From NCBI GenBank assembly GCA_049589195.1, contig JBAWAH010000042.1:2354-66353 (forward strand): a stretch of 64,000 bases of DNA. Direction: 5' to 3'. A program made the translations under genes and the position numbers. Position 1 is the stretch's first letter. Every line of letters starts with the position of its first letter. The DNA comes from Bacteroidota bacterium. Its GTDB lineage: Bacteria; Bacteroidota; Ignavibacteria; UBA10030; JAHEZR01. Shown piece by piece: positions 12,837 to 22,212 of this stretch. The notes under the pieces were generated by a model. The model was not told the origin of the DNA and did not search any database. It saw only the letters and a list, made by a program, of their open reading frames with translations.

Positions 12837-12955
12837 GTTCAAGTGATTGGCGGTTCAGCGTTTTCAAATGTTTGTCTGTTCGATGCAGTGCTCGTAGTTG
12901 CGAAAGTAATCTCTAATCAATATATTTGGTGTTAAATCAATCAACGGAGGTTCTC

Positions 12956-13459
12956 ATGTCATTCCTGCTCGCGGTTCTCCTCATTGCCTTTGCCGCTCTC
13001 TCACGCTTCGTGCCTCATCCGGAGAATTTCACTCCGATAGCCGCCATGGCTCTTTTCGGCGGTGTGTACTTTGGCAAGCGATACGCGTTTGTCGTTCCAC
13101 TCGTGGCGATGGTCGTGAGTGATTACTTTATCGGGTTCCACAACACTGTGCCGTATGTCTACGGGAGCTTCGTTCTAGCGGGGCTCATCGGAATCTGGCT
13201 GAAGAATCACAAGAGCGTTGGCTGGATCGTCGGTGCATCGCTGACAAGCTCTGTGCTCTTCTTTGTCGTCACGAATTTCGGCGTGTGGGTTACTGGTGGT
13301 TACCCTCAGAACTTCGGTGGGCTGGTCGAATGTTATATCGCTGCAATCCCGTTCTTCAGGAATACAGTGCTTGGAGATTTGCTTTATGTCGGTGTCCTTT
13401 TCGGTCTGTATGAATCTGCTCTCCATTTCATGAGACTACGGGAAGCGAAAGAGGCTTGA
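12956..13459 (+). CDS. Small polytopic membrane protein. It resembles the DUF6580 / ECF S-component-like family found in corrinoid-uptake loci (putative).
   Basis: It has 5 predicted TM helices and begins MSFLLAVLLIAFAALSRFVPHPENFTPIAAMALFGGVYFG.... GGAGG sits 6 nt before the ATG at 12956. It is the last gene of the riboswitch-btuB unit. Confidence 0.4.
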   Translation: MSFLLAVLLIAFAALSRFVPHPENFTPIAAMALFGGVYFGKRYAFVVPLVAMVVSDYFIGFHNTVPYVYGSFVLAGLIGIWLKNHKSVGWIVGASLTSSVLFFVVTNFGVWVTGGYPQNFGGLVECYIAAIPFFRNTVLGDLLYVGVLFGLYESALHFMRLREAKEA

Positions 13460-14804: not shown

Positions 14805-15503
14805 TCACGCTGATGACGGTCGAGCATCCTCTTTGGCCAGTTCGGCAACGACAGGCACGCCACGGTGACGGTCTATCCAATATGCCCAGAAGATGATGAT
14901 CAACGCGGCAAGCCCAACGATGCCCATCATGCTTTCGCTGGCAGGCTCTCGGTTGATTGCATTCGCTGCATAGACCAGTGCGAGAAATGTGATGAGTCCC
15001 CAGAAGGCGTAGGTCCCCGTGCGGTCCTTCGCGACGGTGGTGCGTATGTACAGAATTACGCCGACCACGAACATTGCTCCTTCCACCACGACTGTGGCCG
15101 GTACGGAATTCCACAGGCCAAGTCCAACGTAGGCCGACAGGCCCGGCGCTATCGGCATGTCAGGGCCATGTGAGATTGCATCGAGAATCCAATGGCTCAA
15201 GACACAAATCCCCAAGACCCAGGAGCCTTTCCGGTCGCGGCGGATGGCGAAATAGATGAGTCCAAACGCTATTGACCAGGCGATTGAAGTGACAAGGCTG
15301 TGAGAGATCGGATAGTCATAGAAATCGTACGGCGTGAAAGCCGTGTTGCCCGGGTCCGGCCTTACGTGCTCAAGGCCAAGGAGTGCGAGGATCGGAAAAA
15401 GTAGATCGAGGAGTTGCGCCGAGACGAATAGTGTGCCGAGTGATGTTTTCGGTGCTACCTTCTTCGCGGCAAGCGCAACAGCGTAGTGTCCGATGAACAT
15501 TTT
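14805..15503 (-). CDS. Membrane-bound metal-dependent hydrolase, YdjM/DUF457-like.
   Basis: The sequence MFIGHYAVALAAKK...LLDLLFPILALLGLEHVRP...YDYPISHSLV...LSHWILDAISHG carries conserved His residues across 5-6 TM helices. The probable start is the internal Met at 15503, not the track's 15599. Confidence 0.5.
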   Translation of the reverse strand, partial: KMFIGHYAVALAAKKVAPKTSLGTLFVSAQLLDLLFPILALLGLEHVRPDPGNTAFTPYDFYDYPISHSLVTSIAWSIAFGLIYFAIRRDRKGSWVLGICVLSHWILDAISHGPDMPIAPGLSAYVGLGLWNSVPATVVVEGAMFVVGVILYIRTTVAKDRTGTYAFWGLITFLALVYAANAINREPASESMMGIVGLAALIIIFWAYWIDRHRGVPVVAELAKEDARPSSA

Positions 15504-15813
15504 TTCCTTTTGTAATTGATTATCCGGAGTGGCGTCAGCGACCCTTCGCTGACACTCGGGTGGGCCTATGGACGCAGACTCGTTCTTCTTCAAAAACATC
15601 TTTGCTCTTGCACGCCAGCAAGACAGTTGGAAAAACCGGAAACAACTGGAGGAGGATTTGCCGCCTGGTGAGTTGCATGAGTAGGTTGTTCAACTGAGGC
15701 TGTTGACCCGCACCTGACTCCAACCTCTAGCTGGGTGGATTCGGGAAGAAGCGCTATAGATGCAGGGCATGAGCTCGAGGAATCACGCCGTTGCCTTTGA
15801 CGCTATTAACTGC

Positions 15814-16587
15814 TCATTTTCCCGTGTTGTCCGTTACTTGGATGGTGCAGGCGTTCCGATAGAACGGCGGATACTCACTGTTGAGATCGCCCAAGAAGTA
15901 GAAGCCGTACACCAGCTGATACTCACCCGGATCGAAGTCAGCCGCCAACCGTACGAGGCTCTTGCCTCGTTGGAGAGAGTAGTGTTGCTCAAGAACCAAA
16001 TCGATGGAGTCCTGAGATTTCCTTTTGAGGACGGTAAGAATGAAAGGTGTCAACTTGGGCAAAGCGGTGGAATCAAGCACTTCAACTTTCACTTCGATTA
16101 TTTCGTTCCTCGCATAGACAGTTTTGGGGCATTCCGATCTCGCCAGAGTGCCGAGGGGAGCCTCTACATAACCCTTCACAGCGAGTGGAATTCTAAACCA
16201 AGGAACGTTGATCTGGGCGATTGCTGCCAGCCCAATATTAGTGGCGCCATTAGGTGGGTACACTAGCTTCGGTGCAGGTGGTAGAGGGAGTTGGGAGCCA
16301 GGCCCGGCTGGGTTGGTGATTGTTGACTGCATACGATCAGCCAGGAACTTTCCCAGTGATCTCAGGTCTCTAGCGCTGAGTTGCCAAACGACCGTGTCCC
16401 GCGAGTTTGGCTGGTTCGTCACAAATACCTTGGTTGGCTCTTTGCCAGCATTGTACCAAACGTTCAGACCAAACATCACCAAAGCACCGACGACGGTCCA
16501 AAAAGTCCCGGCAAGATACTTTCTCCCAAAGAGGTATCGAACGCCCTTCCTGAAAGCGATAATCAGTTTGTTTGCCTTTTCATTCAT
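15814..16587 (-). CDS. Hypothetical membrane-anchored protein (one N-terminal TM helix, otherwise soluble). It is the downstream partner of the AT-rich gene.
   Basis: A TM helix GTFWTVVGALVMFGLNVWY is followed by a ~200-aa domain with no recognisable motif. The track ORF 15814..16707 overlaps the upstream gene by 80 nt. A more likely start is MNEKANKL near 16587. G+C looks normal, unlike its upstream neighbour. Confidence 0.3.
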   Translation of the reverse strand: MNEKANKLIIAFRKGVRYLFGRKYLAGTFWTVVGALVMFGLNVWYNAGKEPTKVFVTNQPNSRDTVVWQLSARDLRSLGKFLADRMQSTITNPAGPGSQLPLPPAPKLVYPPNGATNIGLAAIAQINVPWFRIPLAVKGYVEAPLGTLARSECPKTVYARNEIIEVKVEVLDSTALPKLTPFILTVLKRKSQDSIDLVLEQHYSLQRGKSLVRLAADFDPGEYQLVYGFYFLGDLNSEYPPFYRNACTIQVTDNTGK

Positions 16588-16627
16588 GGTTGTGGAGGGG
16601 GCGCAGGAAATACGCCGTGCGCGCAAA

Positions 16628-17791
16628 TCATACTTTATCTTCCCCGTTGATTTCGTCGAATGAGGAGTAGATGGATCTCTGGATTGCCATTTCCTTTTCT
16701 TTTTCAAGACGTTCAGATTTGCCAGTTGCCAAGAGCTCAGGGATCAGGTTTATATCATCTTCAATATCGCTCCGTGCAACGTATATCCAAGAGTTTGGTC
16801 TTTTCCTCTCCCTAATACATTCAGGGGAAGGTCCACTTTTGATGGATAGATAAATCTCTTTGAATACATGATTAAGATATGCTTCCTTTTCGCCTGAAAG
16901 ATACGGTAATATTTCTGGTAATATCTGGAGATATGAAAGTGGTGTAGCCCCCACCTGCCTAAAGAAGAAAGGTTTCCTGAAAAGACGAATCTCAACAGGC
17001 TGCGGTATTGTATACTCGCTTGGCAAATAAAAAAGGTCTTCATACTCTTCAAATGGATCAAACTTGATGTCCTTGGATACGAACAATGAGTATCTCATAA
17101 TATTCTTTCCAAACGGATGGCCAGCCAATAATTGAACGATGTAGTTATCCAAGTAGAAGTATGCTCCTTTAAGTTGGGATTCAGCAATATATGCATTTGA
17201 CAATGAGAAGTTCGCTGAGAAAACGTCTTCTTTAGCATTCGCTTTAACGTAGAAAGGTTTTCTAAAACCAGTGGCTAATACTGCTTTTGCTCCGGGAAAA
17301 TAGGAATTATTTTCTTGTCTGTTTATGTAGCTGTACAGCCGTGATACCAATCCAATAAATTTCACGAGCGGCTCAACTGACAAGGTAATCCGAGAATTGT
17401 AGCTCTTCAAGAAAGTTTCTTCGTCCTTCAATTCATCCTTTGAAAAGATTTCTCTTAACTCATTGGCGGACATTCCTCTTCTAATGGCTTGTCCAATAGA
17501 GGGCATGAGGAAATCCGGTAAGTCAATGGTAAGAAAGATTGCGTCATTAATACGCCGTACTTGCAGGTTCGCTGGATAATAATCTGGATAACTCGCTTCT
17601 TCATTCTCCATTAGCATGAGAGCGTCTTCAAGAAACCGCAATCTCTTTATTGCTTCTTGGCCAATATTGGTTCTAATGTCGTATGCTCCAATTTCCAGAT
17701 GGCTGGAAAATCCCAAGAGATCAATAATCGCGGTAACGGTATACTTTATGTCTATATTCTTCTCCAAATGATACTCCTTCAATGATTTCAA
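16628..17791 (-). CDS. Hypothetical 387-aa protein encoded by a strongly AT-rich gene with a TTG start. Weak class-III nucleotidyl-cyclase/palm-like motifs are present.
   Basis: The translation begins (TTG)KSLKEYHLEKNIDIKYTVTAIIDLLGFSSHLEIG... and contains RRINDAIFLTIDLPD about 57 residues later. This loosely resembles the class III cyclase motifs (V..lFxDIvGFT and KTIGDAYM). The nucleotide sequence is visibly AT-rich against GC-rich neighbours. No ATG start is available before residue 59. Confidence 0.35.
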   Translation of the reverse strand: MKSLKEYHLEKNIDIKYTVTAIIDLLGFSSHLEIGAYDIRTNIGQEAIKRLRFLEDALMLMENEEASYPDYYPANLQVRRINDAIFLTIDLPDFLMPSIGQAIRRGMSANELREIFSKDELKDEETFLKSYNSRITLSVEPLVKFIGLVSRLYSYINRQENNSYFPGAKAVLATGFRKPFYVKANAKEDVFSANFSLSNAYIAESQLKGAYFYLDNYIVQLLAGHPFGKNIMRYSLFVSKDIKFDPFEEYEDLFYLPSEYTIPQPVEIRLFRKPFFFRQVGATPLSYLQILPEILPYLSGEKEAYLNHVFKEIYLSIKSGPSPECIRERKRPNSWIYVARSDIEDDINLIPELLATGKSERLEKEKEMAIQRSIYSSFDEINGEDKV

Positions 17792-17969
17792 TTGCAGATA
17801 TTATCTCTTTACACTATTATTGGCGCGCATACTTGCCGGCAGTGGTATTGCCCATAACTACTGCGACTGCGAACAATTTCGTTTAGCATCCCAAAGCAGG
17901 TGAAAAGACGAATGTCGTATGGTTTGGTGGTGCGTAAGGCATGCCGCCTCCGTGACATGTTCACAGAGA

Positions 17970-18150
17970 CCTTCACTCTACGACTCCCAACGGGTCAATC
18001 GGCCCGTCGGGTCGTTGACTTCGAGTCGATAGACTCGTAGAGGTAGGTCTGCTTGAGTGTGTCAAACTTTGACGAAATGTAGAAAAAGAGAAGAGGAAAG
18101 TCAAGCCCACGGTCTACGACTCATCGAGTTGCTAGACTCGTGGAGCTTGT
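17970..18150. repeat. Two related nested inverted-repeat (stem-loop) elements in non-coding DNA.
   Basis: Copy 1 has CTCTACGA...TCGTAGAG enclosing TTCGAGTC-gata-GACTCGTAG. Copy 2 has GTCTACGAC...GTCGTAGAC enclosing TCGAGTT-gcta-GACTCGTGG. There is no coding potential. Confidence 0.35.
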
Positions 18151-18254
18151 CGTAGACAAGAAGAATGATTGAGAAACTCCACCAGCCGGGCAAAGAAGGA
18201 CCAGTGAGGACACTGCCGAAGGCATCGAGATTGTGTAAGAAGTCGTTTTGTCAC

Positions 18255-18565
18255 TCTGAGTCCCGCCAGAAGCGGGACGAATCCCGAAGGGATCCCTTCG
18301 GGAGAGTCTCGTTGTTCCATCCGATTCTTCATCCCGCTGACGCGGGATTCAGAATGACAGGACGCCCCATTGGGCTCTCACACAAATGCCATCCCTTCGG
18401 GACTGTCCTACCCGACAACCCCAGGGTAGGACAGGACTCCGTCCTGTCCCGATTGGACGGGAATGGATTCCCGTCCTACCAAATGATTCCCTGGGCAGGA
18501 TAGATCTGCGACTCGTAGAGACTCTTTCCTATCCGGGGAGACAGGAGAGGACCTCCTGTCCTACC
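18255..18565. repeat. Dense cluster of at least 7 short GC-rich perfect hairpins, REP/MITE-like or a structured RNA.
   Basis: The hairpins are: GTCCCGC-cagaa-GCGGGAC (18260-78); CCCGAAGG-gatc-CCTTCGGG (18283-302); ATCCCGC-tgac-GCGGGAT (18331-48); GTCCTACCC...GGGTAGGAC (18405-32); GGACAGGAC-tcc-GTCCTGTCC (18430-50); GGACGGGAAT-gg-ATTCCCGTCC (18456-77); GACAGGAG-aggac-CTCCTGTC (~18538-58). Confidence 0.45.
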
Positions 18566-18581
18566 AGAGATGCGGCCATGC

Positions 18582-18614
18582 AAAAAAAATGGCTCGCGTT
18601 TGGCGAGCCATTCT
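18582..18614 (-). terminator. Intrinsic terminator of the toxin-antitoxin operon. This is copy A of a duplicated hairpin.
   Basis: The + strand reads AAAAAAAATGGCTCGC-gtttg-GCGAGCCATT. On the - strand this is a 10-bp stem followed by U8, directly after the RelE-like stop. Confidence 0.55.
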
Positions 18615-18666
18615 CAAGATCAGAACCGGAAGAAGGCTTGCTCGGTTCGGAATCCTTGTGACCGAA

Positions 18667-18927
18667 TTACTTCCTGTACGCTTCCTTTCGATGCAGTATG
18701 CGATAGATCACTACCTTCTTATTCCGATCATCGATTTCTAGGAGGACACGATAATCTCCCACTCGGATGCGCCATTCATCCCTTGTTCCCAGTAGTTTTC
18801 GGATCTGTGGTGGCCTGGCGTTTTCTTCGAACTGGTTAATCATCCTGTCTGCCCGTCTGCGAATCTGTTCTGGCAATTCCTCGAGCTGCCGGGAAGCTGT
18901 ACCTGTGAGAAGTACAGTATACTTCAA
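18667..18927 (-). CDS. Type II toxin, RelE/ParE family.
   Basis: The translation is MKYTVLLTGTASRQLEELPEQIRRRADRMINQFEENARPP...WRIRVGDYRVLLEIDDRNKKVVIYRILHRKEAY, which carries the ParE/RelE core. The start overlaps the upstream antitoxin stop (ATGA). Confidence 0.75.
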   Translation of the reverse strand: MKYTVLLTGTASRQLEELPEQIRRRADRMINQFEENARPPQIRKLLGTRDEWRIRVGDYRVLLEIDDRNKKVVIYRILHRKEAYRK

Positions 18928-19157
18928 AGCTTGCCTTTGGCTCGGAGAGACTTACGAACTTCTCGATAAGGAAGTAACGTGTCTTTGCCGGTCCTTATTT
19001 CGTTCTTCGCCCGTTGAATCTCAAGAGAGTCTTTAAGGTCCTCGATAAGGCTGTGTAGCGCCTTGTACTCCTTTATAGGGAGAATCACCTCTCTTGGCTT
19101 CCCGTTGCGCTTGATGATTCGGGCCTTCTGAGGCAGAGCCATTGTCTTGTCAGCCAT
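18924..19157 (-). CDS. Type II antitoxin, Phd/YefM (or RelB)-like.
   Basis: It is 77 aa with ...KARIIKRNGKPREVILPIKEYKALHSLIEDLKDSLEI.... It is translationally coupled to the RelE/ParE gene. Confidence 0.55.
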   Translation of the reverse strand: MADKTMALPQKARIIKRNGKPREVILPIKEYKALHSLIEDLKDSLEIQRAKNEIRTGKDTLLPYREVRKSLRAKGKL

Positions 19158-19212
19158 CTCGCTCTCTCTCCAGATTGTGAAATAAGATACCGAAGTTATT
19201 CTTGAGAGTCAA

Positions 19213-19250
19213 AACAAAAAACGGCTCGCGTTTGGCGAGCCATTTCTTTA
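19213..19250 (-). terminator. Intrinsic terminator downstream of nrdJ. This is copy B of the duplicated hairpin.
   Basis: The + strand reads AAAACAAAAAACGGCTCGC-gtttg-GCGAGCCATTTCTTT. It shares the 22-nt core GGCTCGCGTTTGGCGAGCCATT with copy A. On the - strand the hairpin is followed by UUUUUUGUUUU. Confidence 0.5.
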
Positions 19251-19344
19251 TCAAGTACAAATCTCTCCGTCCCGCCTTCGTCCCGGAAAATCGGGACTTC
19301 GGCGGGTAAACCCGCCGAAGCTCGAAGAGCGCAGGCGGGGTAAA

Positions 19345-19490
19345 TCGAGACTTCAGGAACAGCCAGACGGTTCTCCATCCGCCAAGCAGATGGCGAGATG
19401 TCGAGACTTCAGGAACAGCCTGACGTCTCTCCATCCGCCAAACAGATGGCGAGATGTCGAGACTTCAGGAACAACCTGAAGTCTCTCCAC
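19345..19490. repeat. Tandem 56-nt repeat (2.6 copies), each unit containing an 11-bp hairpin. It overlaps the nrdJ stop codon.
   Basis: The units are 19345-19400, 19401-19456 and a partial unit 19457-19490. The core is GAGACTTCAGG-aaca(g/a)-CCTGA(C/A)GTCTC followed by TCCATCCGCCAA(G/A)CAGATGGCGAGATGTC. The spacer portions are identical between units, so this is not CRISPR-like. Confidence 0.6.
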
Positions 19491-22212
19491 AATTCAGACA
19501 CTTGTAGCAGTTGCCGCTCCTCACCATAATGCTGCCGCAGTCATGGCAGGAAGGGGAGTCGGCCTGAGCCTGGAAGACGATCTTCTCATTTGATTCCATC
19601 GTCCCAGGAACCCTGGCCGTATCGCCTGCGAGCCTGTCCTTTTCCGATGCATTAAGCGAATCGGACATCGTCACAACCGGCTGTTCGTCTTTCGGGAGGA
19701 ATTTCAGTCCGAGCCATCGGAAGATGTAGTCACAGAGTGACTTGGCGATAGGAATCTCTTTGTTGTTCGTGAAGCCGCTCGGCTCGAATCGCATGTGGCT
19801 GAACTTGTCCACCAGGATTCTCAAAGGAACTCCGTACTGGAGCGCGAGCGAAACGGCTGTGGCGAACCCGTCCATAAGCCCTGAGATGGTCGAGCCTTCC
19901 TTCGACATCGTGATGAAGACCTCCCCAGGCTTGCCATCCTCGTAGGTTCCCACGGTTATATAGCCTTCGTGGCCCGCAATACTGAATTTATGGGTGATAG
20001 ACTTCCTCTCGTCGGGCAAACGCCGTCGTTGAGGCTTAAATTTCGGTTTCTCAGGGGTCTCTTTTGAGGTGCTGACCGGTTGAGTGCGCTTGCAGCCGTC
20101 GCGGTAGACCGCAATAGCCTTCAGGCCGAGCTTCCATGCTTCAATGTATGTCTGGGAGATGTCATCGGGCGTGACGTCATTGGGCATGTTCACGGTTTTG
20201 GAGATTGCACCCGAAAGGTACGGTTGGGTGGCGGCCATCATCCTGACGTGACCCATATAATGGATCGATCGCATTCCTTTTTTCGGTTTGAAGGCGCAAT
20301 CAAACACAGCGAGATCTTCTTCATTCAAGTATGGAGCGCCCTCGATCGTGTCATTCTTGTCGATGAAAGCGATGATGTGCTCGATCTGCTCTTTGTTATA
20401 TCCCAGCTTCTGGAGCGCCTCTGGAACAGTGTGGTTAACAATCTTCAAGAAGCCGCCGCCGACGAGTTTCTTATACTTCACAAGCGCGATGTCCGGCTCC
20501 ACCCCGGTCGTGTCGCAATCCATCATGAACCCGATTGTGCCGGTTGGGGCGAGGACCGTTGCCTGGGAGTTTCGGAAGCCGTACTCTGACCCCAGTGTGT
20601 ATACATCTTTCCAGACGCTGGTTGCAGCTGTGTACAAATCCTCGGGGACGAAGCTGCCATCAACCTTCTCGGCATAAAGACCGTGCTTCAGAATGACGTC
20701 GAGCATCGGCTCTCGGTTGACTGTGAATCCGTTGAACGGACTGAGCACCTTTGCTAGTAACGCTGACTGTTTGTACGCTTGGCCGCACATGAGAGAGGTC
20801 ACAGCGGCGGCGTACGCTCGGGCACCGTTTGAATCGTACGGGAGACCACGTGACATCAGCAATGCGCCGAGGTTTGCGTAACCCAAGCCGAGGGGACGAA
20901 AGTCGTAGCTGTTCCGTTCGATAGCCGGCGTTGGATAGCTTGCATTGTCCACCAAAATCTCTTGTGCAGTAATGACGATATCGACGGCATGCTTGAAGGT
21001 ATCGATATCGAATTCTCCATCTTCTCTTCGAAACTTCATGAGGTTGAGAGAAGCAAGGTTGCATGCCGTGTCGTCAAGGAACATGTACTCGCTGCACGGA
21101 TTGGATGCATTGATCGGGGCAGTATTCCGGCACGTATGCCAGTTGTTGATCGTCGTATGGAATTGCAGGCCGGGATCACCACAGATCCACGCAGCCTCAG
21201 CGATCTCCTTCATCAAGTCGCGTGCCTGGTACGCTCCCATCACCTTACCCGTCGTGATCGCCTTCGTGTACCATTCCTTGTCCTCAAGGAGAGCGCGCAT
21301 AAACTCATCTGTAACGCGGACTGAGTGATTGGCATTTTGGTAGTTGATCGAGTCGTAGGCACCACCCGGCACGTTAAACCCGACGTTGTAGCCAGCTTCG
21401 ATGAGCGCCCAGGCTTTCTTTTCTTCTTCAGCTTTGCAGTGAATGAATTCGAAAATGTCCGGATGGTCGGCGTTGAGGATGACCATCTTTGCAGCACGTC
21501 GAGTCTTCCCACCCGACTTGATTACGCCCGCAAACGCATCATAGCCTTTCATGAAGGAGACAGGTCCGCTCGCGATTCCCCCGCCCGAGAGACTCTCTTT
21601 TGAAGAACGAAGAGTCGAGAGGTTCGTCCCGGTTCCCGAACCCCACTTGAACAGCCGCCCTTCCGTCTTTGCAAGATCCAGAATTGAATCCATTTTGTCC
21701 TGGACCGAATTGATGAAGCATGCAGAACACTGCGGACGGTCTTCGACACCGACATTGAACCACACCGGACTGTTGAAGGCTGCGTATTGATTGACAAGCA
21801 AGTATGTCAGCTCGGAATAAAACGTATCTGCGTCTTCCTCCGAGGCGAAATACTTTCCTTTTCTTCCCCAGTCCGTGATTGTCTTGGAAACTCTGTCAAT
21901 GAGTTCCTTCACACTTCGCTCGCGCGCTGGTGTATTGATTTTTCCATGGAAGTACTTTGAGGAAACGACATTCGTCGCCGTCATCGACCAAGACGTTGGG
22001 ACCTCAACGTTTTTCTGCTCGAAGAGTACCTCGCCCTTCTCATTCGAGATCGCCGCGTTGCGAAGTTCCCACACGATATCATCGAAGGGATGTATTCCTT
22101 TCTTTAAGAAAAGCCTGTGAAACGTGAGTCCTTGGGCGGTTTTCGCCTCGACCGAGGAGGGCGTGGAAGCTACGTCGACCTGATTTGCAGCAAAGGATTC
22201 ATCGCTCGCCAT
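19465..22212 (-). CDS. nrdJ: Adenosylcobalamin-dependent (class II) ribonucleotide reductase.
   Basis: It is 915 aa. It carries RNR large-subunit blocks (...NSCSEYMFLDDTACNLASLNL..., ...VNRGDPGL-like region ICGDPGLQFHTTINNWHTC) and the class II architecture. The C-terminus is a zinc ribbon CHDCGSIMVRSGNCYKCLNCGETSGCS. Confidence 0.85.
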   Translation of the reverse strand: MASDESFAANQVDVASTPSSVEAKTAQGLTFHRLFLKKGIHPFDDIVWELRNAAISNEKGEVLFEQKNVEVPTSWSMTATNVVSSKYFHGKINTPARERSVKELIDRVSKTITDWGRKGKYFASEEDADTFYSELTYLLVNQYAAFNSPVWFNVGVEDRPQCSACFINSVQDKMDSILDLAKTEGRLFKWGSGTGTNLSTLRSSKESLSGGGIASGPVSFMKGYDAFAGVIKSGGKTRRAAKMVILNADHPDIFEFIHCKAEEEKKAWALIEAGYNVGFNVPGGAYDSINYQNANHSVRVTDEFMRALLEDKEWYTKAITTGKVMGAYQARDLMKEIAEAAWICGDPGLQFHTTINNWHTCRNTAPINASNPCSEYMFLDDTACNLASLNLMKFRREDGEFDIDTFKHAVDIVITAQEILVDNASYPTPAIERNSYDFRPLGLGYANLGALLMSRGLPYDSNGARAYAAAVTSLMCGQAYKQSALLAKVLSPFNGFTVNREPMLDVILKHGLYAEKVDGSFVPEDLYTAATSVWKDVYTLGSEYGFRNSQATVLAPTGTIGFMMDCDTTGVEPDIALVKYKKLVGGGFLKIVNHTVPEALQKLGYNKEQIEHIIAFIDKNDTIEGAPYLNEEDLAVFDCAFKPKKGMRSIHYMGHVRMMAATQPYLSGAISKTVNMPNDVTPDDISQTYIEAWKLGLKAIAVYRDGCKRTQPVSTSKETPEKPKFKPQRRRLPDERKSITHKFSIAGHEGYITVGTYEDGKPGEVFITMSKEGSTISGLMDGFATAVSLALQYGVPLRILVDKFSHMRFEPSGFTNNKEIPIAKSLCDYIFRWLGLKFLPKDEQPVVTMSDSLNASEKDRLAGDTARVPGTMESNEKIVFQAQADSPSCHDCGSIMVRSGNCYKCLNCGETSGCS

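What the first reader, a model, noticed from the sequence alone, without database searches (positions are those of the whole stretch)
15814..17791. AT-rich gene with weak class-III-cyclase-like motifs, followed by a single-pass membrane protein: candidate horizontally acquired cyclic-nucleotide signalling/defence pair
The 387-aa ORF at 16628..17791 (-) is conspicuously AT-rich. By eye it is roughly 35-40% G+C against about 50-55% for carA, nrdJ and the rest of the window. It has no ATG start; the frame opens with TTG.

Its N-terminus reads ...YTVTAIIDLLGFSSHLE. About 57 residues later comes RRINDAIFL. The hydrophobic-D-hydrophobic-GF(S/T) pattern and the I-x-D-A spacing loosely mirror the two metal-binding motifs of class III nucleotidyl cyclase / GGDEF-like palm domains (FxDIvGFT and KTIGDAYM). 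PycC cyclases of Pycsar systems have this fold.

It is followed, with overlap, by a 258-297-aa protein with one N-terminal TM helix and an unknown soluble domain (15814..16587). A cyclase plus a membrane effector is the two-gene layout of Pycsar/CBASS-like abortive-infection systems. The pair sits beside a toxin-antitoxin cassette and repeat-rich non-coding DNA, which is an accessory-hotspot context. Neither protein matches anything I can name. The cyclase assignment rests on two short motifs only.
Basis: partly seen in the sequence, partly recalled or inferred. Interest (0 to 1): 0.65.

Follow-up and report, generated by a model that had tools for sequence, protein, structure and literature searches.

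The report
Solitary cyclase-fold gene in defence islands
An AT-rich, horizontally acquired gene encodes a member of an undescribed protein family with the fold and metal-binding residues of class III nucleotide cyclases; the family occurs as a lone gene in anti-phage defence islands, so it may be a cyclase-type immunity protein that works without a dedicated effector, and the membrane protein next to it is not its partner.

Summary
ORF387 (16628-17791, minus strand) has 39.4% G+C against 51.7% for the window (z = -5.7, the window minimum). It starts at TTG, and its two motifs are the most conserved parts of a real family.

The "pair" is not supported. The downstream membrane protein has host-like G+C (51%) and no homolog among 5.8 billion proteins. 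Across 37 loci, no neighbour family recurs in more than two.

Homologs are lone genes, AT-richer than their flanks, and often sit beside restriction enzymes, Fic proteins, toxin-antitoxin pairs and PADLOC candidate defence systems. A sister family (hhalign probability 99.4%) is cargo in the P2-prophage defence hotspot and forms single-gene Vibrio integron cassettes.

The best reading is a stand-alone, divergent cyclase-fold NTP-processing enzyme, probably acting in phage defence. Its product and trigger are unknown.

The parts
16628..17791 (-). ORF387. The longest frame is 387 aa from TTG 17791. The likely real start is TTG 17767, giving 379 aa. It is a member of an undescribed family with a class III cyclase fold, has no TM helix, and is AT-rich (39.4% G+C).
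16949..17746 (-). Cyclase-homology-like core, residues about 16-281. Elements are beta1 16-25, helices 28-34 and 42-67, the beta2/beta3 hairpin 77-91, a family-specific insert 92-123, a long helix 124-162, beta4 168-177, alpha4 195-206, and a terminal hairpin 266-280.
17702..17725 (-). Motif 1, I23-D24-L-L-G27-F28-S29-S30, at the end of beta1. It is the proposed first metal-binding Asp plus the D-x-x-G-F-[ST] phosphate-loop signature of class III cyclases.
   Evidence: D24 41/41, G27 and F28 41/41, S29 40/41. Position in the model. Equivalent motif WIDLLGYGS is invariant in the sister family.
17540..17554 (-). Motif 2, R80-I-N82-D83-A84, at the beta2-beta3 hairpin. It carries the proposed second metal-binding Asp.
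   Evidence: R80, N82 and D83 are 42/42. N-D is 34/34 in the sister family. Hairpin position.
17261..17296 (-). Motif 3, P166-G167-A-K169...T-G175-F-R177, on beta4. It carries two invariant basic residues shared with the sister family (PGAR...GFR).
17207..17227 (-). Motif 4, D189-V-F-S-A193-N194-F195, leading into alpha4. It carries the candidate transition-state Asn. The canonical Arg four residues later is absent (S/A at position 198).
16631..16948 (-). C-terminal helical region, residues 282-387. It is specific to this branch of the superfamily, has no known fold, and is a candidate regulatory or sensor module (inferred).
15814..16587 (-). ORF257, an adjacent orphan single-pass membrane protein. 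It has host-like G+C and is NOT a conserved partner. It is listed because the finding included it.
18667..19157 (-). ParE-toxin / Phd-YefM-antitoxin cassette upstream. It is context only.

Best explanation
ORF387 is a horizontally acquired, free-standing gene for a cytoplasmic protein of about 44 kDa. The protein has a highly divergent class III cyclase-homology domain (residues about 16-281) followed by a helical tail of about 105 residues with no known fold. It belongs to a rare, unnamed superfamily that is carried as a single gene in defence islands, prophage defence hotspots and integron cassettes.

Shown here: the fold, the strict conservation of the residues at the positions of the two metal-binding Asp residues, the foreign composition, the absence of any conserved partner gene, and the defence-type neighbourhoods.

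Inferred from the chemistry of class III cyclases:
- The protein dimerises head-to-tail.
- It binds an NTP with two Mg2+/Mn2+ ions through D24, D83, the G27-F28-S29 loop and K169.
- It catalyses attack on the alpha-phosphate with release of pyrophosphate.

Because no receptor or effector gene travels with it, the protective act would be one of two things. Either the reaction itself matters (nucleotide consumption or a nucleotide product that acts directly), or a product is read by something universally present. The family-specific insert and the C-terminal tail are the likely switch that keeps the enzyme off until infection.

The neighbouring membrane protein ORF257 is an unrelated lineage-specific gene.
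For: Fold:
- The AF2 model has pLDDT 90.7 and pTM 0.89.
- The Foldseek top 50 are all class III cyclases, E from 6e-6, probability 1.0 for 49 of 50.

Active-site residues:
- D24 is 41/41. R80, N82, D83, G167, K/R169, G175, R177, D189 and N194 are 42/42.
- D24 ends beta1 and N82-D83 sit in the beta2-beta3 hairpin. This is where PycC D102/D146 and D62/D106 lie (PMC11224242).
- The same residues are invariant in a sister family (hhalign probability 99.4%, E 1.5e-21).

Foreign origin:
- G+C is 0.394 against 0.517, z = -5.7.
- All 8 homologs tested are AT-richer than their flanks.
- The family was found in 8 of 185,579 species genomes, spread over Acidobacteria, Bacteroidota and Desulfobacterota.
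- Only 198 cluster representatives were found in 1.84 billion.

Solitary gene:
- 37 loci and 122 neighbours gave no neighbour family present in more than 2 loci.
- The sister gene is bounded by attC-type repeats as a single-gene integron cassette.

Defence context:
- Neighbours match SoFic (3 members, best 1e-114), mad8, PDC-S04, PDC-S24, type II/IIG/III/IV restriction enzymes, PDC-S01/S02/S14/S28 and DrmMI.
- There are full-length PDC-S28 and PDC-M34A/B matches directly adjacent.
- Toxin-antitoxin pairs lie nearby in the window and in L005, L008, L009 and L010.
- The sister family lies between gpA and ogr/portal in Aeromonas P2-like prophages. That is the hotspot defined in PMC9122126.
- 6 of 8 random unknown genes at such hotspots protected against phage (PMC13586616).
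Against:
- There is no sequence-level link to canonical cyclases. Pfam PF00211 gives no hit and hhalign against AC C1/C2 gives probability 0.1%.
- The canonical transition-state Arg (N-x-x-x-R on alpha4) is absent (S/A198), so catalysis may be altered or lost.
- The invariant R80 lies 3 residues before the second Asp. The specificity residue lies 4 before it in PycC (R142/D146 in EaPycC, PMC11224242) and, from my own knowledge, in canonical class III cyclases.
- Several loci are flanked only by housekeeping genes (L003, L018/L020, L019).
- In this window the only accessory neighbour is a ParE/Phd pair.
- No member was found in 2.9 million viral contigs or in INPHARED phages.
- Defence-island association is circumstantial. 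PADLOC 'PDC' systems are themselves only candidates.
- How a cyclase would protect without an effector is unprecedented and speculative.
Confidence: 0.6

Rival explanations
1. ORF387 and ORF257 form a two-gene Pycsar/CBASS-like abortive-infection system, in which the cyclase makes a cyclic nucleotide that activates the downstream single-pass membrane effector.
For: The genes are on the same strand, 40 nt apart, with no terminator-like site between them. ORF257 has one TM helix. The cyclase fold resembles PycC.
Against: ORF257 has no homolog in 5.8 billion proteins other than itself. It has no CNB or other domain. Its G+C is 0.51 against 0.39 for ORF387, so the two genes have different histories. 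None of 36 other loci has a related neighbour, and no neighbour family recurs in more than 2 loci. Sister genes are single-gene integron cassettes. PADLOC Pycsar and CBASS models are silent.
Confidence: 0.04
2. ORF387 is a pseudo-cyclase. The domain binds a nucleotide (or another ligand) but does not cyclise it. The protein would then act as a sensor, scaffold or regulator, like the class III cyclase-like ATP-binding protein 6yii.
Against: Both metal-binding Asp positions, the GF[ST] loop, an Asn at the start of alpha4 and two basic residues on beta4 are invariant across two families that are otherwise about 26% identical. Pseudo-enzymes usually lose this pattern.
Confidence: 0.2
3. ORF387 is an ordinary physiological cAMP/cGMP cyclase. 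It would feed the host's own second-messenger network and have nothing to do with genetic conflict.
For: It has a class III cyclase fold. Some loci are flanked by housekeeping genes, and the gene is syntenic in two Flavobacterium species.
Against: The family is in only 8 of 185,579 species genomes and is scattered over phyla. It is always AT-richer than its flanks. It has no sensory or regulatory domains of the kinds found in signalling cyclases. It is embedded in restriction, Fic and TA neighbourhoods. The sister family rides on prophage hotspots, integron cassettes and conjugative plasmids.
Confidence: 0.08
4. ORF387 is a selfish or addiction-type toxin (for example a nucleotide-depleting toxin) that persists because of its own maintenance effect, or a toxin whose antitoxin is a small unannotated ORF or RNA.
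For: It is frequently close to type II TA modules. It is mobile as a single gene. A 58-aa ORF abuts the gene in L010, and a 55-aa ORF lies 17 nt upstream in the window.
Against: No small neighbour is conserved. The 55-aa window ORF has no family match. Integron cassettes hold the sister gene alone between attC sites.
Confidence: 0.08

Closest known systems
Class III nucleotidyl cyclases (cyclase homology domain, Pfam PF00211; e.g. Spirulina CyaC 1wc1, M. tuberculosis Rv1264 1y10, P. aeruginosa CyaB 3r5g, mammalian AC9 6r3q)
   Different: No detectable sequence similarity exists. The Asp-Asp spacing is 58-61 residues against 44. There is a 30-residue insert and an elongated helix. The alpha4 Arg is absent. 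An extra helical tail of about 105 residues with unknown fold is present. There are no sensory domains. The gene is mobile and defence-island associated, not a housekeeping signalling gene.
Pycsar pyrimidine cyclases PycC (8jsz AnPycC, 7r65 BcPycC, 8jsf EaPycC)
   Different: Pycsar is defined by a cyclase plus an adjacent cNMP-binding effector (PycTM or PycTIR). This family has no conserved neighbour at all, and PADLOC Pycsar models do not match.
Unnamed sister family of about 280 aa (e.g. P0262 Aeromonas caviae, P0260 Serratia marcescens, P0224 Vibrio alginolyticus, P0199 V. vulnificus)
   Same: It is homologous over the cyclase-like core (hhalign probability 99.4%, E 1.5e-21) with identical invariant residues. 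It is also unannotated, solitary and mobile.
   Different: It is shorter. It has a different insert between beta4 and alpha4 and a different C-terminus. It has K/R at N+5 on alpha4 and a hydrophobic residue in place of R80. It is found in Proteobacteria, in P2-like prophage hotspots, Vibrio integron cassettes and conjugative plasmids.
GGDEF diguanylate cyclases, Cas10 palm and mCpol (Panoptes OptS 9mnr)
   Same: They share the palm-type beta-alpha-beta-beta-alpha-beta core with two acidic metal ligands. Cas10 and mCpol are defence cyclases.

Membership tests
Class III nucleotidyl cyclase (CHD, PF00211) | Cyclase-homology-domain fold | tested here: met
Class III nucleotidyl cyclase (CHD, PF00211) | Recognisable by the family's sequence profile | tested here: not met
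   No PF00211 hit even at E <= 1. NCBIfam gives nothing. A PDB profile search gives nothing. hhalign against AC8/AC9 C1 and C2 gives probability 0.1%.
Class III nucleotidyl cyclase (CHD, PF00211) | Two metal-binding Asp residues: one at the end of beta1 within D-x-x-G-F-[ST], and one in the beta2-beta3 hairpin | tested here: met
   D24-L-L-G-F-S ends beta1 and N82-D83 lie in the hairpin. D24 is 41/41 and D83 42/42. The assignment rests on position in the model's secondary structure, not on a residue-level superposition.
Class III nucleotidyl cyclase (CHD, PF00211) | Transition-state pair Asn...Arg (N-x-x-x-R) on alpha4 | tested here: not met
   N194 is invariant at the start of alpha4, but N+4 is S/A (26 S, 15 A, 1 T) and N+5 is Asn. 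Other invariant basic residues (K/R169, R177) might substitute, but this is untested.
Class III nucleotidyl cyclase (CHD, PF00211) | Substrate-specifying pair (Lys/Asp for ATP, Glu/Cys for GTP) | tested here: inconclusive
   R80 is invariant but sits 3 residues before the second Asp, not 4. D189 is invariant before alpha4, but the register against Y-D-I-W-G is ambiguous by 2 residues. A structural superposition is needed.
Class III nucleotidyl cyclase (CHD, PF00211) | Head-to-tail dimer with interfacial active sites; NTP cyclisation activity | not testable with these tools
   No multimer prediction, coordinates or biochemistry were available.
Pycsar | PycC cyclase recognised by Pycsar models | tested here: not met
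   PADLOC-DB gives 0 families for ORF387 at E <= 1. Only fold similarity to PycC exists.
Pycsar | Adjacent, co-inherited effector with a cyclic-nucleotide-binding domain fused to TM helices or TIR | tested here: not met
   ORF257 has no CNB, TIR or any other domain and no homologs. No neighbour family recurs in 37 loci.
CBASS | CD-NTase (Pol-beta-like fold) plus Cap effector | tested here: not met
   The structural hits are class III cyclases, not CD-NTases. PADLOC gives no hit. There is no conserved effector.
GGDEF / Cas10 / mCpol palm cyclases | GG[DE]EF or GGDD hairpin motif and best structural match to that family | tested here: not met
Type II toxin-antitoxin toxin | Conserved small adjacent antitoxin gene | tested here: not met
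   There is no conserved neighbour. The neighbouring ParE/Phd pair is complete on its own.
Anti-phage defence gene (operational definition: enriched next to known defence genes; protects when expressed) | Co-localisation with known defence systems and residence in recognised defence hotspots | tested here: met
   Neighbours hit at least 12 PADLOC system names, eight of them at E < 1e-80. PDC-S28 and PDC-M34A/B are directly adjacent. The sister family sits in the P2 gpA-gpQ hotspot and in integron cassettes. No background-corrected statistic was computed.
Anti-phage defence gene (operational definition: enriched next to known defence genes; protects when expressed) | Protection against phage on expression | not testable with these tools
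   This needs an experiment.

The most novel reading that the evidence does not exclude
ORF387, its sister family of about 280 aa and a third short branch form a new superfamily of single-gene anti-phage immune proteins built on a class III cyclase fold. They work with no dedicated receptor or effector. They would act either by collapsing an NTP pool or by making a nucleotide product that directly poisons phage replication or is read by a universal cellular component. That would be a cyclase-based immunity logic different from Pycsar, CBASS, type III CRISPR, Thoeris and Panoptes.
Probability: 0.35. Interest if true: 0.8.

Novelty: new variant of a known kind. Interest (0 to 1): 0.62.

Why it matters
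Every cyclase-based bacterial immune system characterised so far pairs the nucleotide synthase with a receptor-effector. This includes Pycsar, CBASS, type III CRISPR and Panoptes.

This family has the cyclase fold and an intact metal site. It travels as one gene through defence islands, a prophage defence hotspot and integron cassettes, and it is invisible to Pfam, NCBIfam, PADLOC and PHROGs.

If it protects against phage, it shows that a class III cyclase fold can act as a self-sufficient immune module, and it adds a family that current annotation pipelines miss. If it does not, it is still a well-defined, structurally assignable 'hypothetical' family with cultured representatives in Flavobacterium, Aeromonas, Vibrio and Serratia that make it directly testable.

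Tried and rejected
- Sequence libraries. Pfam, NCBIfam, PADLOC and PHROGs gave no hit for either protein. PADLOC also gave no credible hit for eight superfamily relatives, six of them sister-family members; the best were two REase_II matches at E about 0.04.
- PDB sequence-profile search. Only noise, E >= 0.08.
- hhalign of the family profile against authentic AC8/AC9 C1 and C2 sequences retrieved. Probability 0.1%, so a sequence-based residue mapping onto canonical cyclases was abandoned.
- AFDB Foldseek. The library was not available.
- Model coordinates were not exposed, so D24-D83 proximity and residue-level superposition could not be checked.
- Search for a conserved partner. Comparisons among hand-picked neighbours and among 122 neighbours of 37 loci found none.
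- I tested whether the unannotated upstream genes in L009 and L012 were paralogous cyclase-like partners. They are not.
- Viral contigs, INPHARED phages, plasmids (for ORF387) and E. coli genomes (for the sister gene) gave no match.
- Rfam on 15000-19600 gave only sub-threshold noise.
- Promoter and terminator scans were at chance level.
- No flanking direct or inverted repeats mark the insertion of ORF387.
- Literature searches for a described solitary cyclase-fold defence protein found none.
- The Met59-start hypothesis is rejected, because residues 14-58 are the best conserved part of the family.
Full report
1. THE OBSERVATION

The 387-codon frame at 16628..17791 on the minus strand is real.
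- Its G+C is 0.394 against 0.517 for the whole window.
- GC3 is 0.41 against 0.63-0.67 in carA, nrdJ and the YdjM-like membrane gene.
- It is the lowest-G+C stretch of that length in the window, z = -5.7.
- In 200-nt steps the dip begins near 16600 and ends near 17800. It therefore covers this gene only, and the downstream ORF (0.51) is host-like.

The frame opens with TTG at 17791. A second in-frame TTG at 17767 is preceded by AAGGAG and a 6-nt spacer, and it gives the 379-aa product annotated by NCBI as a hypothetical protein of a Bacteroidota MAG. The first ATG is Met59.

The downstream ORF has one hydrophobic helix. Gene callers start it at the ATG at 16587 (257 aa), which leaves a 40-nt gap, so there is no overlap.

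The upstream cassette carries ParE-toxin and Phd/YefM-antitoxin domains.

2. THE MOTIFS ARE REAL FAMILY FEATURES

ORF387 has at least 80 homologs at 31-73% identity. All are 'hypothetical' and none has a Pfam domain. In an alignment of 42 sequences:
- D24 is present in all 41 sequences that cover it.
- G27 and F28 are 41/41 and S29 is 40/41.
- R80, N82, D83, G167, K/R169, G175, R177, D189, A193, N194 and F195 are 42/42.

Residues 14-58 are among the best conserved, so the Met59-start refuter fails.

3. FOLD

An AlphaFold2 model built on this alignment has mean pLDDT 90.7 and pTM 0.89.
- Foldseek agrees independently. All top 50 hits are class III cyclases, E from 6e-6, probability 1.0 for 49 of 50, TM 0.5-0.65 normalised to target, over about 270-280 alignment columns.

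In the model, D24 ends strand beta1 and is followed by G-F-S at the start of a helix. N82-D83 occupy the beta2-beta3 hairpin. K169...G175-x-R177 lie on beta4, and N194 caps alpha4.

The two catalytic, metal-binding Asp residues of PycC enzymes are D102/D146 in EaPycC and D62/D106 in AnPycC, 44 residues apart, with specificity residues R142 and Q144 just before the second (PMC11224242). That these Asp residues sit at the end of beta1 and in the beta2-beta3 hairpin is from my own knowledge of class III cyclases. In ORF387 the spacing is 58-61 residues.

The D-x-x-G-F-[ST] signature and a basic residue six positions before the conserved beta4 Gly match the canonical F-x-D-I-x-G-F-T and R-x-G-x-H-x-G patterns seen in the authentic AC sequences retrieved. 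The functional roles of those canonical residues are from my own knowledge of the adenylyl cyclase literature.

4. WHERE IT DEPARTS FROM THE KNOWN FAMILY

No sequence method links it to class III cyclases.
- Pfam PF00211 does not hit even at E <= 1.
- A PDB profile search gives only noise.
- hhalign against AC8/AC9 C1 and C2 gives probability 0.1%.

The canonical transition-state Arg four residues after the alpha4 Asn is absent (S/A198).

There is a 30-residue insert after beta3 and an elongated helix.

5. THE 'PAIR' IS NOT A PAIR

- ORF257 has no homolog other than itself among 5.8 billion proteins.
- It has no domain in any library.
- It has the host's composition.
- I collected 37 loci that carry ORF387-family genes and compared the two nearest ORFs on each side, 122 proteins in all, all against all. 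Only six clusters appeared, each linking just two loci.
- In Vicingus, Flavobacterium palustre and F. pokkalii, and Desulfobacula, the gene is a lone insertion between housekeeping genes.

The Pycsar-like two-gene layout is therefore not supported. Co-transcription with ORF257 cannot be excluded, because there is no terminator between them. Given the composition break at the junction, it would be an accident of insertion.

6. WHAT KIND OF GENE IT IS

The family is rare and patchy.
- There are 198 cluster representatives at E <= 1e-3 among 1.84 billion.
- It was found in 8 of 185,579 species genomes, spread over Acidobacteria, four Bacteroidota lineages and Desulfobacterota.
- It was found in none of 2.9 million viral contigs.
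- In 8 of 8 loci with flanks, the gene is AT-richer than its surroundings, by 0.01 to 0.17.

Its neighbours are disproportionately conflict genes. Among the 122 neighbours, PADLOC models hit the following:
- SoFic (3 members, best 1e-114), mad8 (3), PDC-S04 (3) and PDC-S24 (2).
- Type IV and type II restriction enzymes (2 each).
- A type IIG enzyme (E = 0) and a type III enzyme (6e-126).
- PDC-S01, PDC-S02, PDC-S14, PDC-S28 and DrmMI (E from 6e-88 to 0).

The commonest Pfam families are ResIII, Fic and HNH_5, followed by IstB_IS21, Mrr_cat and DndB.

Specific cases:
- A full-length PDC-S28 helicase lies directly upstream in L011.
- Full-length PDC-M34A/B lie directly downstream in L017.
- A defence-type caspase is present in L007.
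- Type II TA modules are nearby in the window and in four other loci.
- A DDE transposase is present in L016.

PADLOC 'PDC' systems are candidates, not validated systems, and I could not compute a background-corrected enrichment.

7. THE SISTER FAMILY SHARPENS THE PICTURE

The exhaustive profile search also found proteins of about 280 aa with the same motif set: WIDLLGYGS, NDG, PGAR, GFR and ELQANFAF.
- Their profile matches the ORF387 profile with hhalign probability 99.4%, E = 1.5e-21, over ORF387 residues 2-220.
- The equivalents of D24, N82, D83, K/R169, R177 and N194 are 34/34.
- This family has more than 230 members in Vibrio, Aeromonas, Serratia, Pectobacterium, Burkholderia and rhizobial plasmids. 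All are 'hypothetical'.

Its contexts are recognised anti-phage cargo positions.
- In Aeromonas caviae it lies between the P2-type replication gene (Phage_GPA) and ogr/portal/terminase. This is the gpA-gpQ locus shown to be a hotspot of anti-phage systems (PMC9122126).
- In Serratia it abuts the integrase of a P2-like prophage.
- In Vibrio it is one cassette in an array with SLATT, Mrr and DUF3800 genes. In L027 there are 11 copies of a 125-nt attC-type repeat (TAACAAAC...CCTTAAC), and two of them bound the gene exactly.

A single-gene integron cassette is good evidence that this kind of protein works alone. In a recent survey, 6 of 8 randomly chosen unknown genes at such satellite and phage hotspots were protective (PMC13586616).

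8. MECHANISM

Shown here: the fold, the invariant residues at the metal-site positions, the solitary and mobile gene, and the defence-type neighbourhoods.

Inferred from class III cyclase chemistry: a head-to-tail dimer binds NTP with two metal ions through D24, D83, the G-F-S loop and K169. It then catalyses nucleophilic attack on the alpha-phosphate with release of PPi.

Speculative: because no receptor travels with the gene across phyla, the protective output is either the reaction itself (NTP depletion or a directly inhibitory nucleotide) or a product read by a universal component. The branch-specific insert and helical tail would gate activity until infection.

The missing alpha4 Arg keeps a non-catalytic, nucleotide-sensing role alive as a rival reading. 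One detail may bear on this. The ORF387 branch has invariant R80 with Asn at N+5 on alpha4. The sister branch has a hydrophobic residue at the R80 position and an invariant K/R at N+5. This looks like a basic residue relocated within one pocket, but it is untested.

9. COMPARISON AND NOVELTY

The protein works like a class III cyclase or PycC at the level of fold and metal site. It fails membership of PF00211 by sequence and lacks one of the canonical catalytic residues. It fails Pycsar membership on the defining effector. It is not CBASS, GGDEF, Cas10 or mCpol.

Literature searches found no description of a solitary cyclase-fold defence protein or of this family.

I rate it a new variant of a known kind: a stand-alone, Pfam-invisible cyclase-fold superfamily associated with defence loci.

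10. VERDICT AND SCORES

- Observation: confirmed.
- Interpretation: partly supported. The fold, the horizontal acquisition and the conflict context hold. The two-gene system does not.
- Interest: 0.62.
- Most novel reading not excluded: an effector-less cyclase-fold immune protein. Probability about 0.35, interest 0.8 if true.

Noticed in passing
window 18584-18612 and 19216-19244: A 29-nt direct repeat (97% identical) brackets the ParE/Phd cassette. It contains a perfect hairpin (AATGGCTCGC / GCGAGCCATT) next to an A/T run. On the minus strand it reads as an intrinsic terminator, once after nrdJ and once after parE. This looks like a terminator duplicated when the TA cassette was inserted.
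   Followed up: partly
window 19345-19489: There are three tandem copies of a 56-nt unit (85-100% identical over the 33-nt core). The last copy overlaps the final codons and stop of nrdJ. Each unit carries an 11-bp-stem hairpin (GAGACTTCAGG...CCTGAAGTCTC). The origin is unexplained.
   Followed up: partly
window 17800-18660: An 870-nt stretch has no convincing gene and holds at least ten short, mostly perfect G+C-rich hairpins (for example TCCCGAAGGGA/TCCCTTCGGGA and GGACAGGAC/GTCCTGTCC). Rfam gives no hit above noise. It could be REP/MITE-like debris or a structured RNA.
   Followed up: partly
L027 1-7960 (Vibrio, GCA_034571795.1) and L026: This is an integron cassette array with 11 attC-type repeats of about 125 nt. 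Cassettes include SLATT_5, DUF3800, Mrr_cat and ASCH genes and the cyclase-fold sister gene, each as a single-gene cassette.
   Followed up: yes
L023-L025 7001-7813 (Aeromonas caviae chromosomes CP118442.1, CP092181.1): The sister-family gene sits in a P2-like prophage between gpA and ogr/portal, flanked by unannotated 166-aa and 161-aa genes that might be further hotspot cargo.
   Followed up: partly
A1 columns for residues 80 and 199; A2 residues 71 and 183: There is a reciprocal pattern between the two families. One has invariant R80 plus N199. The other has V/A/I71 plus invariant K/R183. This suggests a basic residue relocated within the same pocket.
   Followed up: no
Homologs P0011, P0020, P0024, P0045, P0052, P0063 and others (430-450 aa): A sub-branch carries an extra conserved C-terminal module of about 60 residues (consensus ...LSEE....LL....GD...LDY) that is absent from ORF387. 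Its function is unknown.
   Followed up: no
P0198, P0201, P0207, P0209, P0214 (244-301 aa): A third, more distant branch of the superfamily has motifs HDLLGFGS / (Y/F)ND / GPGGRT / ANLAFAEA. Its contexts were not examined.
   Followed up: no
L020 7980-8909 (Flavobacterium pokkalii) against L018 7980-9023 (F. palustre): The gene is at the same position in both species, between a ClpB/ClpC-type ATPase gene and rimK. In F. pokkalii the ORF is 309 aa against 347 aa, so it may be C-terminally truncated or decaying.
   Followed up: no
L017 9355-10648 and L011 3258-5783: Full-length matches to PADLOC candidate systems lie directly beside ORF387-family genes. They are PDC-M34A/B (DUF5343 plus a Swt1-like HEPN protein) and PDC-S28 (a DEAD/ResIII helicase).
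   Followed up: yes
window 12926-13459 and 14805-15599: The flanking host genes are a DUF6580 / ECF-S-component-like membrane protein and a weakly YdjM-like membrane protein. Both are ordinary backbone genes with host G+C.
   Followed up: yes
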